59,223 nt of DNA from a phage: the NCBI GenBank assembly GCA_025276375.1, contig GCA_025276375.1_3645.1. One strand, 5' to 3'. The notes beneath the pieces are model-generated. The model had not been told where the DNA came from. It made no database searches and worked only from the letters and a program-made list of their open reading frames with translations. The translations under genes were made by a program, and so were the position numbers. Below, one piece after another: positions 42,446-46,115 of this stretch. The number at the start of each line of letters is the position of its first letter. The first letter of the stretch is position 1.

Positions 42446-44875
42446 ATGAGCATGTATAGCTTCGATTTTGAGGCCTCCGGGCTTTTGGAAGACCCAGATC
42501 TTTATTATCACTGCGGCCTGTTTAAAGAGCTGAATAAGAACCGTTTTATGCTGTTCCTCCCTCTAAATGACCGCACACACTACTCCGAGGAGGATATAGA
42601 GAAGGCTAAGAACTTTATTCTGGCAAAGAAAGCTCTTTATAAAGATTTTGAAGTTCGCATAGCAGATTTTTCGGAGTTGGAAGGTTGGCTTACAGGCAAT
42701 TCCGACTGGTCACCAACAGCTTTGAACTGCCATAACTGCTATAGTTATGACTTTATGCTGATGGAGAGATTATCCGGTATTCATTTTGATATGTTCCGTG
42801 ATCCTAAATGTATGGGGACTATCAACGACCACCAGGTTAACCTGTTTGATACGTTGGCGATGAGCCGAATCTTGTGGCCTGATCGCCCTTTACCAAAAGG
42901 TTGTCCGGACGCTGTATTCAACCCGGTTACTAAGAAAATGCAGCCTGTTGGTCCTCACGGCCTTATGGCATGGGGCTACGCCCTTGGTAACCAGAAAGTT
43001 CAAATTGATGACTGGCGCGATCTTCCGTTATGGAAGTATGTGGATCGTGTATTTGAGGACGTTATCATCCAGGAGCTGCTCTGGAAAGAGCTGGTAGCGG
43101 AATCAAAAGGTGTATTCTACGGCAAATCTGACATGCAGAACTTTATGTACGATCCTGCCAAAGAGAAGCCGAAAGGGTTCAAGAAGATTACCTGGAAGAA
43201 TGCATTACGCCGAGGCATGCTGCAGCATTTCCTGATGGAGCTGCAGGCTCGACAGGGTGTGTATTTCGACATAGATGGGGCTATTGCTTTACGTGACCGC
43301 TGCGATGCGTGGATGAAAGAGATCGCTGATCGTGTTGAACCACAACTTCCTTTAAAAGAGTTATCAATGTCTCAGCGGCCTAAGTTCCCTGAAAAGCCGT
43401 TTAACCAGGATGGGACAATCTCCAATAATGGTTGGAAATGGTTAAAAGACAAGCTTGGCTATCCTGTGGACATGAGCGCTTTAGAGTTCAAAGCTCCTCC
43501 TAAGCGAGCATTTACCTCCACAGGGGATGTCAGCAAAATGGGGATAAAATGGTGTGAAGAGATGGGCTGCAAAGACCCCGATAAGATGGCTGATTTCTTA
43601 AGGGGGTATATTAAAGGGACCTCTACACCACATCCTTTACCTAAAGAGCTAATGGATCAGGCAATAAGTGATCTACAGCAGAAGCGGATGCCTGACTGCA
43701 AGATACCTATGAAGATCAGCAACCAGGACGATATTAAGAGATACCTGATCAGTGCTGGTTGGCTCCCAACAATGTGGAGAACTAAGGATGTAACTAAAGA
43801 CAGCAAGAAGAAAGCTCTACCTGATGCAGATGTTGATGCACGAGTATATGCATATATGGACGAGCTTTTAGAGTCAGAGTATTGTGACCTGATTATCAAC
43901 TTCTGGAACAAAACTGATGCTAAGTTCCAGACAACCGTGCACAAGTTCCGAAGCTTTCCTAACTCCGAAAGGATTAAAAAGGAAGTATTCGGGAAAATAC
44001 GTAGAAAAGCCAGGGCACTTATTACTTCTCCGCAACTGAAAGATACGTTTGGACACCTATGTCCGAATCTTGAAAAATTGAACGGAGAGATGGCTAAAGA
44101 TATCGTCTTGTGGTTATCATTGCGAAACCGCAGATCGGTCCTTGATCCAATTAAGGAGGATAAGGTTGATACTGGTCTTCTTAATCACCCACGTTTGAAG
44201 ATTGACCATAAGCTTCCTGCTAAAAGCTCTGGATTAACAAACACTTCCAGACAGAAACACAGTATTTGTGCAAACATGCCTAAACCATCTCCTAAAGTGG
44301 TTATGGGTAAAGAGATGCGTAGTCTGTGGGGTGTTCCTCCAGGATACTTTGAGATCGGTATTGACGGGTCCAACTTAGAGCAGCTTATCGGGGCTTGGGG
44401 TGCCTTTGAGTTCGACAACGGCTTGTATTATGATGTTGTAAGTAACGGGGACGCACACCAAAACAATGCTGAGGCATATACAAAAGTAGCAGGCAGAGAG
44501 GTGTCTCGTAACGACGGTAAACCTATCACGTATGGGGTTATGTACGGGGCACAAAAAGATAAAGTTGCAGATATGCTGGACATCTCTCCAGAGTTGGGAC
44601 AAAGGGTAATCGATGCACTTTGGGATGCCAACCCTGGTCTTAAGGGGCGTAAAGAGGATCTGGAGAAATTCTGGGAAGCAACGGGTAAGAAGTTTATCTA
44701 CTCTTTTGATGGTCATGCCATCTGGACCCGATCTAAACACTCTTTACTTAATGCATACCAACAGAATGGTGGTGCATCGCTGTGTGACTTAGTTGGGATA
44801 CTCATGCACCACCAAATGGTGAAGCGTGGGTGGTACGATGAAGGTGTTCGTCGTATTATTTATTACCATAAATAA
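42446..44875 (+). CDS. family A DNA polymerase, exon 1 ORF (conserved sequence ends at about 44809-44812)
   Basis: exo motif 'FDFEASG', motif A 'DGSNLEQ', motif B 'RNDGKPITYGVMYG'; last 21-22 codons look like intron read-through. Confidence 0.8.
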   Translation: MSMYSFDFEASGLLEDPDLYYHCGLFKELNKNRFMLFLPLNDRTHYSEEDIEKAKNFILAKKALYKDFEVRIADFSELEGWLTGNSDWSPTALNCHNCYSYDFMLMERLSGIHFDMFRDPKCMGTINDHQVNLFDTLAMSRILWPDRPLPKGCPDAVFNPVTKKMQPVGPHGLMAWGYALGNQKVQIDDWRDLPLWKYVDRVFEDVIIQELLWKELVAESKGVFYGKSDMQNFMYDPAKEKPKGFKKITWKNALRRGMLQHFLMELQARQGVYFDIDGAIALRDRCDAWMKEIADRVEPQLPLKELSMSQRPKFPEKPFNQDGTISNNGWKWLKDKLGYPVDMSALEFKAPPKRAFTSTGDVSKMGIKWCEEMGCKDPDKMADFLRGYIKGTSTPHPLPKELMDQAISDLQQKRMPDCKIPMKISNQDDIKRYLISAGWLPTMWRTKDVTKDSKKKALPDADVDARVYAYMDELLESEYCDLIINFWNKTDAKFQTTVHKFRSFPNSERIKKEVFGKIRRKARALITSPQLKDTFGHLCPNLEKLNGEMAKDIVLWLSLRNRRSVLDPIKEDKVDTGLLNHPRLKIDHKLPAKSSGLTNTSRQKHSICANMPKPSPKVVMGKEMRSLWGVPPGYFEIGIDGSNLEQLIGAWGAFEFDNGLYYDVVSNGDAHQNNAEAYTKVAGREVSRNDGKPITYGVMYGAQKDKVADMLDISPELGQRVIDALWDANPGLKGRKEDLEKFWEATGKKFIYSFDGHAIWTRSKHSLLNAYQQNGGASLCDLVGILMHHQMVKRGWYDEGVRRIIYYHK

Positions 44876-45712
44876 CATTGTGGCTTCATAGAGTGATCTA
44901 TGTCGAATAACCTCTTTAATTGACGGGAAAGCTAAGTTGACTTTTACACCTGAGTATGGTAAAAGCTCAATATGCTAATCCGCAGCGAAGACTAAAGGGG
45001 TGTAGTTAAAATGGCTAGAACAGCTGATTATCACGGGTATACCGTGTTTGATGATGGAACAATACCTTTATCGAAACGTGATCATACAACAATGTTTTGT
45101 TTTGATAATGGTAGAGGTTACCTTTGCGTAACCATGCTAATCGAGGGGAAGCAGTGCACAAAAGGTGTCCACCACCTGGTTGCTGAATGCTTTGTATCAA
45201 ACCCAGATCCTGAAAGGCTCACATGGGTGAACCATAAGGATGGGAATAAGTACAACAATGCATACTGGAACCTGGAATGGACCACCCCTGGTGGAAATAT
45301 CAAGCACGCCTATGATAATGACCTCAGAGTAAGGCCAGTTGGTGAGTATAATGCCAACGCTGTGCTGACAGAAGATGAGGTAATAGAGATTTGCGAACTG
45401 TTGCAGAGTGGTCTACGACAATGCGAGATTAGGGATCTTGGATATCCTTATGAGACCGTCAGGGCTATAAAGCAAAGAAGACAGTGGAAACATATCTCTA
45501 AAAACTACACCTGGTAGTAACGTTCAGAGACTATCGAAAGCATAGCTCCAACACAGGTTGGTGTGAAGAAGCGAGTAGAGTAGGCCAGCAAGTGCGGTCG
45601 AAATGGGAGGTGCCTTGGTAACAAGGCAGTGAGGTAGTCCGATCCATACAGGAAACTGTATGGCTATGCACGTAATGGTGCGGGGTAGCTTAACGACCTA
45701 CCTGAACAGATG
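44810..45712 (+). mobile_element. putative group I intron carrying an HNH homing endonuclease ORF, inserted in DNA polymerase motif C
   Basis: joining 44809 to 45713 restores '...GILMH|DEYQLQV...' (motif C HDE); intron ends in G (45712); no SD before exon 2; GC-rich structured 3' region with 'CAGAGACTATCG' (P7-like). Confidence 0.55.
45011..45517 (+). CDS. HNH homing endonuclease (I-HmuI-like)
   Basis: 'VHHLVAECFVSNPDPERLTWVNHKDGNKYNNAYWNLEWTT' HNH core; AAAGGGG SD. Confidence 0.75.
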   Translation: MARTADYHGYTVFDDGTIPLSKRDHTTMFCFDNGRGYLCVTMLIEGKQCTKGVHHLVAECFVSNPDPERLTWVNHKDGNKYNNAYWNLEWTTPGGNIKHAYDNDLRVRPVGEYNANAVLTEDEVIEICELLQSGLRQCEIRDLGYPYETVRAIKQRRQWKHISKNYTW

Positions 45713-46066
45713 GATGAGTACCAACTTCAGGTTCCTGACACGCCTAAGTATAAGACTGTGTACACCTTCGACACAATTGAAGAATTGGAAGCATTTAAGG
45801 CAGAGCAGGAGGCCAAACTTCATGTGTTCGACGGTCATAAGTACAAAAAGGCACGCAAGGATGAAAACGGAAACGAAGTGGTTGACAGAGACGGAAACAC
45901 GGTGTACGATCCTATCTTGAACGATGACGGAAAGCTTGAACTTATCTGGAGCCCTGTGGGTGAAATGGTGGTGCATTGCTTCTGGCAAGCTTCTAAAATG
46001 ATGGGAGTCCCGTTCCAGATCACAGGTGAATACTTGTGTGGTCGTAACTGGGGTGATTGTCACTAA
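45710..46066 (+). CDS. family A DNA polymerase, exon 2 (C-terminal segment; coding probably begins at 45713)
   Basis: begins 'DEYQLQV' and ends 'GRNWGDCH', matching the Pol A C-terminal '...NW...H' end (T7 gp5, Klenow). Confidence 0.6.
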   Translation: MDEYQLQVPDTPKYKTVYTFDTIEELEAFKAEQEAKLHVFDGHKYKKARKDENGNEVVDRDGNTVYDPILNDDGKLELIWSPVGEMVVHCFWQASKMMGVPFQITGEYLCGRNWGDCH

Positions 46067-46115
46067 TGTAAACTATCAGCACAGGGAGGTGCTGTTAAGC
46101 AAAGAGGAGACTTTT

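What the first reader, a model, noticed from the sequence alone, without database searches (positions are those of the whole stretch)
44810..45712. DNA polymerase split inside catalytic motif C by an HNH-endonuclease-bearing, group-I-intron-like insertion
The Pol A ORF loses conservation after '...LVGILMH' (about 44809) and runs 21-22 more codons to a stop. The downstream ORF at 45710 begins 'MDEYQLQV' and ends 'GRNWGDCH', the hallmark Pol A C-terminus. Joining 44809 to 45713 gives 'GILMHDEYQLQV', a good motif C (compare Klenow 'IMQVHDELVFEV'). The intervening 903 nt ends in G, carries a free-standing HNH endonuclease ORF with its own SD (45011-45517), and exon 2 has no SD, unlike almost every other gene here. 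The 3' part (45518-45709) is unusually GC-rich and contains 'CAGAGACTATCG', reminiscent of the group I P7 strand. The last exon base is C rather than the usual U, so the exact 5' splice site is uncertain.
Basis: partly seen in the sequence, partly recalled or inferred. Interest (0 to 1): 0.8.

Follow-up and report, generated by a model that had tools for sequence, protein, structure and literature searches.

The report
Self-splicing intron in phage DNA polymerase

Summary
The window comes from an rV5-like (Vequintavirus) coliphage. Its family-A DNA polymerase gene is interrupted by a group I intron at 44870-45712 (843 nt), not 44810-45712. Intron-less sister phages read ...TATTACCAT|GATGAGTAC... 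without a break, which fixes the exon junction at 44869|45713 (…RRIIYYH|DEYQLQV…). That is between the His and the catalytic Asp of motif C (T7 gp5 H653|D654). The last exon base is a U, in a U·G pair within P1, and the intron ends in G. Natural ORF-less versions of the intron (276 and 328 nt) exceed Rfam's group I threshold. Across 14 homologous introns from several phage genera, 57 base pairs (P1-P9.2, including the P3/P7 pseudoknot) are 98.6% paired, and 31 show compensatory changes. The 168-aa ORF (45011-45517) is an I-HmuI-like HNH endonuclease sitting in loop P6a. A homologous intron at the same site in Pectobacterium phage CB7 was shown by RT-PCR to splice, and GenBank records of the BASEL collection already annotate this polymerase as a joined CDS. 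Splicing of this copy is inferred, not measured. The kind is well known, so interest is low.

The parts
42446..44869 (+). Exon 1 of the family-A DNA polymerase gene (808 codons, ends ...RRIIYYH).
   Evidence: ORF. Intron-less alleles continue from TATTACCAT straight into GATGAG. The T7 gp5 alignment runs through to H653.
44870..45712 (+). Group I intron, 843 nt, IA-type (P7.1/P7.2 present). It begins AAATAA, giving an in-frame stop after one extra codon, and ends in the terminal G (omega-G).
   Evidence: Boundaries come from intron-less alleles. RF00028 gives 27.8 bits on the window and 73.7 / 64.7 bits on ORF-less alleles. Covariation.
44866..44883 (+). P1: exon CCAU plus intron AA (44866-44871) pairs with the internal guide UUGUGG (44878-44883). 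The 5' splice site follows U44869, which pairs with G44880.
   Evidence: All six pairs are kept in 14/14 introns, with the U·G pair invariant (helix 1).
44887..44902 (+). P2 hairpin (CAUAGA / UCUAUG).
   Evidence: 6 of 6 pairs show changes on both sides and 100% of cells are paired (helix 2).
44911..44916 (+). P3 5' strand (CCUCUU); it pairs with 45605-45610.
   Evidence: 3 of 6 pairs are compensatory and 100% are paired (helix 3).
44921..44984 (+). P4-P5-P5a domain: P4 is UGaCGGG / UCCGCA; P5a is CUUUUAC / GUAAAAG.
   Evidence: Rfam alignment and fold. P4 shows G-C to U-A exchange between lineages, read by eye from the alignments.
44937..44965 (+). Sigma-70-like motif inside P5a (TTGACT, 17 nt, TAAAAG). 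It may be a promoter for the endonuclease gene, but the -10 element is weak in this copy.
   Evidence: The motif sits at the same position in 11 of 14 homologous introns and is missing from the three shortest ORF-less ones. A promoter is annotated there in PVP-SE1. The consensus scan did not call it in the window.
44985..44990 (+). P6 5' strand (GC...) and the start of P6a.
   Evidence: Rfam alignment of the ORF-less allele, helix 5.
44991..45518 (+). Insertion in loop P6a (528 nt). It replaces the 14-nt hairpin CAUCCGAGAGGAUG of the ORF-less JEP1 intron.
   Evidence: Comparison of the window with JEP1.
45011..45517 (+). HNH homing-endonuclease gene (168 aa), I-HmuI-like, with its own SD.
   Evidence: PHROG 59, E 1.5e-36. 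PDB 1U3E (I-HmuI), E 3e-5, across the HNH motif. Pfam HNH_3 gives 17.7 bits, below its cut-off. 31 phage records hold a copy at 90% identity or more.
45519..45533 (+). P6 3' strand, J6/7 and the P7 5' strand (AACGUUCAGAGACUA; P7 is 45529-45533).
   Evidence: P7 is 100% paired with one compensatory pair (helix 6).
45534..45599 (+). P7.1 (45534-45582) and the P7.2 hairpin (45583-45599), the extra helices typical of subgroup IA.
   Evidence: Fold. P7.2 has 4 pairs with changes on both sides (helices 7-8).
45605..45610 (+). P3 3' strand (GGGAGG), which closes the P3/P7 pseudoknot.
   Evidence: helix 3.
45611..45628 (+). P8 hairpin (UGCCUUG / CAAGGCA).
   Evidence: 6 of 7 pairs are compensatory (helix 9).
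45635..45639 (+). P7 3' strand (UAGUC).
   Evidence: helix 6.
45644..45702 (+). P9 (45644-45663), P9.1 (45668-45681) and P9.2 (45684-45702).
   Evidence: Fold. There are 5, 2 and 3 compensatory pairs respectively (helices 10-12).
45712..45712 (+). Terminal G (omega-G); the 3' splice site follows it.
   Evidence: G in 14 of 14 introns; junction fixed by intron-less alleles.
45713..46066 (+). Exon 2 of the polymerase (DEYQLQV...GRNWGDCH, 117 codons plus stop). Its first codon is the motif C catalytic Asp.

Best explanation
The family-A DNA polymerase gene of this Vequintavirus is interrupted by a mobile group I intron (44870-45712). It lies between the His and Asp codons of motif C (H808|D809, equivalent to T7 gp5 H653|D654). 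The primary transcript is inferred to fold into a P1-P9.2 ribozyme of IA type. A guanosine cofactor would attack after U44869, which lies in the U·G pair of P1. The freed exon 1 would then attack after the terminal G45712. Ligation restores a 925-aa polymerase reading ...RRIIYYHDEYQLQV.... Loop P6a holds a 168-aa I-HmuI-like HNH endonuclease gene with its own ribosome-binding site. By analogy with I-HmuI, I-BasI and I-TslI, this enzyme would nick or cut intron-less polymerase alleles in mixed infections, so that repair copies the intron into them (homing). Shown here: the exact junction, the conserved and covarying ribozyme structure, the family of the endonuclease, and the presence/absence polymorphism. 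Inferred: splicing of this particular copy, and the activity and target of the endonuclease.
For: 1) Intron-less alleles. The joined exons match as one ungapped 328-nt piece at 94-98.5% identity in many Vequintaviruses. EduardKellenberger, JES2013, slur12 and B9-1 read TATTACCAT|GA(T/C)GA(G/A)TA continuously, and their polymerase CDS is 2778 nt, i.e. 925 aa. 2) The corrected junction aligns with T7 gp5 across ...awvHDEiqv. It also lifts Pfam DNA_pol_A to 34.5 bits with the alignment crossing the junction. 3) RF00028 scores 73.7 and 64.7 bits (gathering score 50) on the natural ORF-less introns of JEP1 and rV5. The window scores 27.8 bits, E 7e-5, because the ORF breaks the model. 4) Covariation in 14 homologous introns at the same codon boundary, from Vequintavirus, Seunavirus, Certrevirus, Plateaulakevirus, Pakpunavirus and Vibrio phages. 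Of 57 pairs, 98.6% of cells are paired; shuffles give 83.0 +/- 0.9 (0/500 reach the observed value) and slid controls 33-43%. 31 pairs change on both sides, against 2-13 in slid controls (independent count). 5) U·G at the 5' splice site and a terminal G are present in 14/14 introns. 6) HNH ORF: PHROG 59, E 1.5e-36; I-HmuI (PDB 1U3E), E 3e-5, over the catalytic HNH motif. 7) The homologous intron of phage CB7 (HNH gene CB7_50) has the same IIYYH|DEYQLEV junction. RT-PCR with cDNA sequencing reported it as spliced (PMC7344957, Table 3). 8) BASEL GenBank records annotate this polymerase as a two-piece join around a 'putative homing endonuclease', and the joined length is 2778 nt.
Against: No RNA data exist for this phage, so splicing of this copy is inferred. 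The window sequence itself stays below Rfam's gathering score. Pfam HNH_3 is below its curated cut-off and NCBIfam gives nothing. No consistent exon difference between intron-plus and intron-minus alleles was seen within 20 nt upstream of the site, so the endonuclease target cannot be read from the sequences. The intron ends in an in-frame ATG, so separate translation of exon 2 cannot be excluded formally.
Confidence: 0.92

Rival explanations
1. Split gene without splicing. The insertion is never removed from the RNA. The polymerase is made as two polypeptides (exon 1 plus Lys, and MDEYQLQV... starting from the ATG at 45710) that assemble after translation, as reported for NrdA of Aeromonas phage Aeh1 split by mobE.
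For: There is an in-frame ATG at 45710-45712. All 14 homologous introns end in ATG, TTG or GTG in frame with exon 2. Non-splicing HNH insertions are reported, for example CB7_245 and Aeh1 nrdA (PMC7344957).
Against: There is no Shine-Dalgarno sequence before 45710. The break would fall between His and the catalytic Asp of motif C. ORF-less 253-328-nt versions are retained with 31 compensatory pairs, which makes sense only if the RNA fold is under selection. The homologous CB7 intron does splice.
Confidence: 0.04
2. The intron is 44810-45712 (903 nt) and the mature protein reads ...LVGILMH|DEYQLQV....
For: That join is in frame and produces an HDE motif.
Against: Intron-less alleles keep the 60 nt 44810-44869. 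Those 20 residues align with T7 gp5 634-653. The Pfam score is lower and the alignment stops before the junction. No U·G P1 pair can form at 44809, whereas a conserved one exists at 44869.
Confidence: 0.01
3. A decayed intron. The ribozyme core is intact but this copy has lost self-splicing, or needs a protein cofactor, and/or the HNH gene is an inactive relic.
For: There is no direct activity data. The -10 element of the promoter-like motif in P5a is weak in this lineage. Intron-less, ORF-less and ORF-bearing alleles coexist, as expected for a cycle of gain, decay and loss.
Against: All core helices of the window copy are fully paired. The ORF is full length (168 aa against 172 aa in CR9) and keeps the His/Asn residues of the HNH motif. 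Phages carrying this allele are viable isolates, 31 records in all, and need a working polymerase.
Confidence: 0.05

Closest known systems
The same intron as annotated in Vequintavirus genomes of the BASEL collection (e.g. WalterGehring MZ501111, RudolfGeigy MZ501102; Maffei et al. 2021, PMC8594841)
   Same: The sequence is 93-96% identical. The polymerase CDS is annotated as a two-piece join around a 'putative homing endonuclease', and the joined length is 2778 nt, as derived here.
   Different: Those records and the paper give only intron boundaries from comparative annotation. They give no ribozyme class, structure or splicing data. Many other records (FFH2, Mangalyan, rV5) still list two or three separate genes.
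Pectobacterium phage CB7 / phiTE (Certrevirus) DNA polymerase intron containing CB7_50 (Buttimer et al. 2020, PMC7344957)
   Same: A homologous ribozyme core at the identical IIYYH|DEYQ codon boundary. Splicing in infected cells was shown by RT-PCR and cDNA sequencing.
   Different: It carries a different, smaller HNH gene that starts in the P5 loop and reads through P4'/P6. The core is about 75% identical. CB7 has a second polymerase intron that this window lacks.
[quoted passage not shown]
   Same: Pol A gene of a coliphage. PMC3428280 gives the insertion site as 'site 881' in E. coli Pol I numbering. From my own knowledge H881 is the His of the motif C HDE triad, which would make it the H|D boundary found here. 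From my memory of that paper's abstract, those introns are subgroup IA2 with an HNH ORF in P6a, as here.
   Different: I could not compare sequences. The paper is not held and no PhiI or W31 record surfaced in the phage collection. Homology between the two introns is therefore untested.
SPO1 / SP82 / Bastille / Pf-WMP3 DNA polymerase introns encoding I-HmuI, I-HmuII, I-BasI, I-PfoP3I
   Same: Group I introns in phage Pol A genes that encode HNH nicking endonucleases. The window's ORF matches I-HmuI (PDB 1U3E) at E 3e-5 over the HNH motif.
   Different: They are inserted at a different place, site 674 in the fingers rather than motif C (PMC3428280), and their hosts are Gram-positive bacteria or cyanobacteria.
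T4 td, nrdB and nrdD (sunY) introns
   Same: Group IA2-type phage introns with an ORF looped out of a peripheral helix. From established knowledge, the ORFs are expressed from signals internal to the intron.
   Different: The host genes and the endonucleases differ (GIY-YIG I-TevI and I-TevII; I-TevIII is an HNH enzyme).

Membership tests
Group I intron (Rfam RF00028) | Covariance-model score at or above the family's gathering score (50 bits). | tested here: met
   The natural ORF-less alleles of the same intron score 73.7 bits (JEP1) and 64.7 bits (rV5). The window copy scores only 27.8 bits (E 7e-5 locally, 0.004 window-wide), because the 528-nt P6a insertion breaks the model.
Group I intron (Rfam RF00028) | P1 formed by the exon end and an internal guide sequence, with a U·G pair at the 5' splice site. 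| tested here: met
   CCAU|AA pairs with UUGUGG, and U44869 pairs with G44880. This is invariant in 14/14 homologous introns.
Group I intron (Rfam RF00028) | Terminal G (omega-G) at the 3' end of the intron. | tested here: met
   G45712; G in 14/14 introns.
Group I intron (Rfam RF00028) | Conserved core of P3-P8 with the P3/P7 pseudoknot and the P4-P6 domain, supported by covariation. | tested here: met
   57 pairs are 98.6% paired and 31 are compensatory. 0 of 500 shuffles reach the observed value, and slid controls give 33-43%. The inner P4 pairs were left out of the count because a bulge shifts the alignment; by eye they exchange G-C for U-A.
Group I intron (Rfam RF00028) | Precise removal restores the host reading frame. 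| tested here: met
   Intron-less alleles are collinear with exon 1 plus exon 2. The product is 925 aa.
Group I intron (Rfam RF00028) | Guanosine-dependent self-splicing. | not testable with these tools
   The only indirect support is in vivo splicing of the homologous CB7 intron by RT-PCR (PMC7344957; same site).
Subgroup IA (IA2-like) | Extra helices P7.1/P7.2 between the P7 5' strand and the P3 3' strand (definition from my own knowledge of the Michel & Westhof classification). | tested here: met
   71 nt (45534-45604) lie between P7 and P3'. The P7.2 hairpin covaries (helices 7-8; fold). No subgroup-specific model was run.
HNH homing endonuclease (I-HmuI-like) | HNH / His-Me finger catalytic motif. 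| tested here: met
   PHROG 59, E 1.5e-36. The alignment to I-HmuI (1U3E) covers vHhLva...v(n)HkDGnk.NN...NL.W. Pfam HNH_3 is below its cut-off at 17.7 against 24.8 bits, and NCBIfam gives nothing.
HNH homing endonuclease (I-HmuI-like) | Encoded inside a self-splicing intron, with presence/absence polymorphism among close relatives. | tested here: met
   The ORF lies wholly within P6a. Four allele states occur within one genus: no intron, 276 nt, 328 nt and 843 nt. 31 records carry the ORF.
HNH homing endonuclease (I-HmuI-like) | Site-specific nicking or cleavage of the intron-less allele near the insertion site. | not testable with these tools
   Exon flanks of intron-plus and intron-minus alleles show no diagnostic difference.
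Intein | An in-frame insertion translated together with the host protein. | tested here: not met
   A stop codon (TAA, 44873-44875) falls two codons into the insertion, and the HNH ORF has its own start.
Split gene expressed as two polypeptides (Aeh1 nrdA/mobE type) | The downstream half has its own translation start signals, and no ribozyme is present. | tested here: not met
   An ATG is present but there is no SD, and a complete, covarying ribozyme is present.

The most novel reading that the evidence does not exclude
This would be one old intron lineage fixed at the His|Asp boundary of Pol A motif C in at least six groups of Gram-negative myoviruses, and possibly the T7-like PhiI/W31 introns as well. 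It has been colonised independently by three unrelated endonuclease genes in three different loops: an I-HmuI-like HNH gene in P6a, a small HNH gene entering through P5, and a LAGLIDADG gene in P7.1. Its P5a helix doubles as a sigma-70-type promoter for whichever gene is on board. Within Vequintavirus alone, empty sites, two ORF-less intron types and the ORF-bearing form circulate together. That would make it a natural system for watching the intron-endonuclease partnership and the homing cycle. I found no paper describing this pattern in the held literature.
Probability: 0.35. Interest if true: 0.4.

Novelty: already known. Interest (0 to 1): 0.2.

Why it matters
There are three practical points. 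First, many GenBank records of rV5-like phages list the polymerase as two 'genes' plus an HNH gene or hypothetical proteins. The type phage rV5 and RefSeq FFH2 are among them, and the rV5 genome paper describes a truncated 775-aa polymerase. The exact junction given here (…TATTACCAT|GATGAG…) corrects those records. Second, an intron at the catalytic Asp of an essential replication gene is a textbook example of homing elements targeting the most conserved DNA. Third, four allele states in one genus, and three different endonuclease genes in the same intron across genera, make a good data set for intron-endonuclease evolution. None of this changes current understanding of group I introns.

Tried and rejected
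- Rfam at gathering threshold on the whole window found nothing. The cause is the 528-nt ORF insertion, not the absence of an intron, as the ORF-less alleles show.
- RNAalifold without pseudoknots mispaired the P3 5' strand and proposed a GUUCA/UGAAC helix with no covariation. I replaced it with a manual structure containing the pseudoknot.
- MAFFT shifts the inner P4 pairs by one column between introns with and without a bulged base, so those pairs were left out of the formal count.
- My first automatic mapping of helices onto alignment A1 picked the wrong GAGAGG and GCAC copies and was corrected.
- The sigma-70 scan did not call the P5a motif in the window.
- Bonocora & Shub 2004 could not be read. 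The comparison with PhiI/W31 rests on a secondary citation and on memory.
- A search for another group I intron in the window found none: Rfam in E-value mode and the P7 motif. The window has no tRNA genes.
- Comparing exon flanks for a co-conversion or immunity signature was inconclusive.
Full report
WHAT THE WINDOW IS. The region 44400-46100 is 95-99% identical to many Escherichia phages of the genus Vequintavirus (rV5-like myoviruses), such as phiWec189, ECML-10, FFH2 and FV3. A Pol A ORF runs 42446-44875, a 168-aa ORF 45011-45517, and a 118-aa ORF 45710-46066 that ends GRNWGDCH. Pfam sees DNA_pol_A in the first ORF, but only up to profile position 261 of 381 and below the curated cut-off (27.9 against 34.3 bits). 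It gives a weak HNH_3 hit in the second ORF.

THE JUNCTION. I joined exon sequence as 44693-44869 plus 45713-45863 and searched the phage collection. The 328-nt query matched as a single ungapped piece at 94-98.5% identity in many Vequintaviruses. In EduardKellenberger, JES2013, slur12 and B9-1 the sequence reads ...TATTACCAT GA(T/C)GA(G/A)TA... without interruption. Their polymerase CDS is 2778 nt, i.e. 925 aa. That is exactly the length of my spliced product.

The insertion is therefore 44870-45712 (843 nt). They are present in all intron-less alleles. They align with T7 gp5 up to H653, and the alignment continues across the junction into D654-E655 (…iiyyHDEyql / …mawvHDEiqv).

With the corrected junction the Pfam DNA_pol_A alignment extends to profile position 349 and reaches 34.5 bits. 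The intron thus sits between His808 and Asp809. By established knowledge of Pol A enzymes (T7 D654, Klenow D882), Asp809 is the metal-binding aspartate of motif C.

IS IT A GROUP I INTRON? Rfam at gathering threshold finds nothing in the window. In E-value mode RF00028 gives the only hit, at 44860-45089 with 27.8 bits. The model recognises P1-P6 and then loses the thread inside the ORF.

Nature has provided the control. Besides intron-less alleles, Vequintaviruses carry ORF-less versions of the same insertion at the same site: 276 nt in rV5 itself and 328 nt in JEP1. These score 64.7 and 73.7 bits, above the gathering score of 50. The JEP1 intron is 92-99% identical to the flanks of the ORF-bearing introns. 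It differs from the window mainly in having a 14-nt hairpin (CAUCCGAGAGGAUG) where the window has 528 nt containing the ORF. The ORF is therefore an insertion in loop P6a.

STRUCTURE AND COVARIATION. A distant search with the ORF-less intron found homologous introns in polymerase genes of other genera. I fetched 13:
- Vequintavirus and close relatives: rV5, JEP1, TH18, A5-4
- Seunavirus: SSE121, PVP-SE1
- Certrevirus: CR9, phiTE
- Vibrio phages: K412, 10AMN
- Aeromonas Plateaulakevirus: 4L372D, phiA019
- Pseudomonas Pakpunavirus: SPA01

All have exon 1 ending TACCAT and exon 2 starting GAYGAR, so they share the same His|Asp boundary.

I wrote a structure by hand (P1, P2, P3, outer P4, P6, P7, P7.2, P8, P9, P9.1, P9.2, with P3 and P7 as a pseudoknot). 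It was applied to an alignment of the five natural ORF-less introns plus nine with the endonuclease gene excised. The results were:
- 57 pairs, with 98.6% of cells forming standard pairs. Shuffles give 83.0 +/- 0.9 (0/500 reach the observed value) and partners slid by 1-3 columns give 33-43%.
- 31 pairs change on both sides, against 2-13 in the slid controls.
- The covariation score is 0.513 against 0.210 for shuffles.

An independent count on a differently built alignment gave the same picture. P2, P3, P8, P9 and P9.2 are especially rich in compensatory changes. P1, with U·G at the splice site, and the terminal G are invariant.

In window coordinates the elements are:
- P1 44866-44871 / 44878-44883
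- P2 44887-44902
- P3 44911-44916 / 45605-45610
- P4-P5a 44921-44984
- P6 44985-44986 / 45522-45523
- P7 45529-45533 / 45635-45639
- P7.1-P7.2 45534-45599
- P8 45611-45628
- P9 45644-45663
- P9.1 45668-45681
- P9.2 45684-45702
- omega-G 45712

The extra helices between P7 and P3' place it in subgroup IA. That assignment rests on my knowledge of the classification; no subgroup model was run. A four-pair P10 is possible on paper (exon 2 GAUG with CAUU 44876-44879); this is inference.

The core folds and covaries.

THE ORF. The 168-aa protein matches PHROG 59 'HNH endonuclease' (E 1.5e-36). It also matches the solved structure of I-HmuI, the nicking endonuclease of the SPO1 polymerase intron (1U3E, E 3e-5), across the HNH motif. 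31 phage records carry a copy at 90% identity or more. The next closest (55%) is the ORF in the CR9 intron at the same site. Activity and target are inferred by analogy. Exon flanks of intron-plus and intron-minus alleles show no diagnostic difference close to the site.

DOES IT SPLICE? There are no RNA data for this phage. Three arguments support splicing.
- The polymerase is essential, and its catalytic Asp lies in exon 2.
- ORF-less introns of 253-328 nt are kept with dozens of compensatory pairs, which is expected only if the fold is selected.
- The homologous intron of Pectobacterium phage CB7 (with HNH gene CB7_50, between CB7_51 and CB7_49) sits at the identical IIYYH|DEYQLEV junction. 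RT-PCR with sequencing of the cDNA reported it as spliced in infected cells (PMC7344957, Table 3).

The alternative, two polypeptides without splicing, has in its favour only the in-frame ATG at 45710. That ATG has no ribosome-binding site.

WHAT IS KNOWN. Group I introns with HNH endonucleases in phage Pol A genes have been known since SPO1. PMC3428280 lists three insertion sites. Site 674 is used by SPO1, SP82, Bastille and Pf-WMP3. Site 676 is used by phiL7. Site 881 is used by the T7-like coliphages PhiI and W31. Site 881 is the His of the motif C HDE triad, so it appears to be the same boundary as here. I could not read the original paper or compare sequences.

For Vequintavirus, the BASEL collection records already annotate the polymerase as a two-piece join around a 'putative homing endonuclease'. 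This holds for both the 842-nt and the 276-nt form, and the joined length is 2778 nt. The BASEL paper says intron boundaries were set by comparative annotation. In contrast, the rV5 genome paper describes a 775-aa polymerase and mentions introns only in the terminase gene. The rV5, FFH2 and Mangalyan records list separate genes. I found no paper that describes the ribozyme of this intron.

The element is therefore already known and annotated, though unevenly.

POPULATION PICTURE. One search listed an evenly spaced sample of 60 of the 117 matching records. Of these, 58 were informative:
- 28 had no intron
- 14 had the 276-nt intron
- 2 had the 328-nt intron
- 14 had the HNH intron

In all, 31 records carry the HNH form.

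Across genera the same intron carries three unrelated endonuclease genes in three different places. An I-HmuI-like HNH gene sits in P6a (window, SSE121, CR9, A5-4). A smaller HNH gene starts in the P5 loop and reads through P4'/P6 (phiTE, CB7, 4L372D). A LAGLIDADG gene sits in P7.1 (PVP-SE1). phiA019 and SPA01 also carry an insertion of about 500 nt at P6a, but their ORFs were not classified.

VERDICT. The interpretation (group I intron with an HNH homing endonuclease inside motif C) is correct. The finding is ordinary for phage biology and already present in public annotation, so interest is low.

Noticed in passing
window 44937-44965 (P5a); same position in L005, L008-L011, L013, L014, L016-L018: The P5 extension of the intron contains TTGAnn, 16-17 nt, TAnnnN at intron position about 67-69 (104 in phiTE) in 11 of 14 homologous introns. 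These are all nine with an endonuclease gene, plus JEP1 and TH18. The motif is absent from the three shortest ORF-less introns. PVP-SE1's record annotates a promoter there. A structural helix may double as the promoter of the endonuclease gene. In the window the -10 element is weak (TAAAAG).
   Followed up: partly
L011 (phiTE), L013 (4L372D), L018 (PVP-SE1), L022 (CB7) versus window 44991-45518: The same intron at the same site carries three unrelated endonuclease genes in three different loops in different genera: an I-HmuI-like HNH gene in P6a, a small HNH gene entering through P5, and a LAGLIDADG gene in P7.1. This implies independent invasions.
   Followed up: partly
L004 (rV5, DQ832317) 778-1053: The type phage rV5 carries a 276-nt ORF-less intron at this site. 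Its record and genome paper list a truncated 775-aa polymerase plus 'hypothetical' ORFs 225-227, so the intron was missed. The rV5 intron also looks mosaic: P1-P3 and P9.1 to the 3' end resemble the window/JEP1 type, while P4-P9 resemble the SSE121 type.
   Followed up: partly
window 45710-45712; last three bases of all 14 introns: Every homologous intron ends in ATG, TTG or GTG in frame with exon 2, all of which are possible start codons. No Shine-Dalgarno sequence precedes them. This is probably a by-product of the conserved U before the terminal G, but it would allow exon 2 to be translated from unspliced RNA.
   Followed up: no
window 45713-45724 and the same positions in L001, L019-L021: The first 12 nt of exon 2 occur in two synonymous versions, GATGAGTACCAA and GACGAATATCAG, with hybrids also present. 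They do not sort cleanly by intron state. This may be variation in the endonuclease target or a trace of co-conversion.
   Followed up: partly
hits H198-H205 (e.g. JES2013 59613-59664; rV5_ev158 and JohannBauhin terminase large subunit): A 51-nt stretch of the intron core (P4' to P7) is 92-94% identical to sequence inside the terminase large-subunit gene region of Vequintaviruses, where rV5 is known to have introns. This suggests related introns in two genes of the same phage. The terminase intron is not in this window.
   Followed up: partly
(GenBank MG0656xx records): About 16-20 records named 'Campylobacter phage' with host C. jejuni are 95-99% identical to E. coli Vequintaviruses over this region. 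They are probably mislabelled or were co-isolated coliphages.
   Followed up: no
L022 (CB7) about 1546-2260: CB7 has a second HNH-bearing insertion further upstream in the polymerase gene, between ...KGVTYG and (I)MYGAQ. The window has no insertion there; it reads GKPITYGVMYGAQ continuously.
   Followed up: no
L002 (Mangalyan) and L005 (JEP1), polymerase CDS start; L001 (FFH2) 1-550: Mangalyan and JEP1 annotate exon 1 as 3399 nt, 969 nt longer at the 5' end than the window's 2430-nt ORF. FFH2 has an extra HNH endonuclease gene abutting the polymerase start. The window has neither. Another mobile element seems to come and go at the 5' end of the polymerase gene.
   Followed up: no
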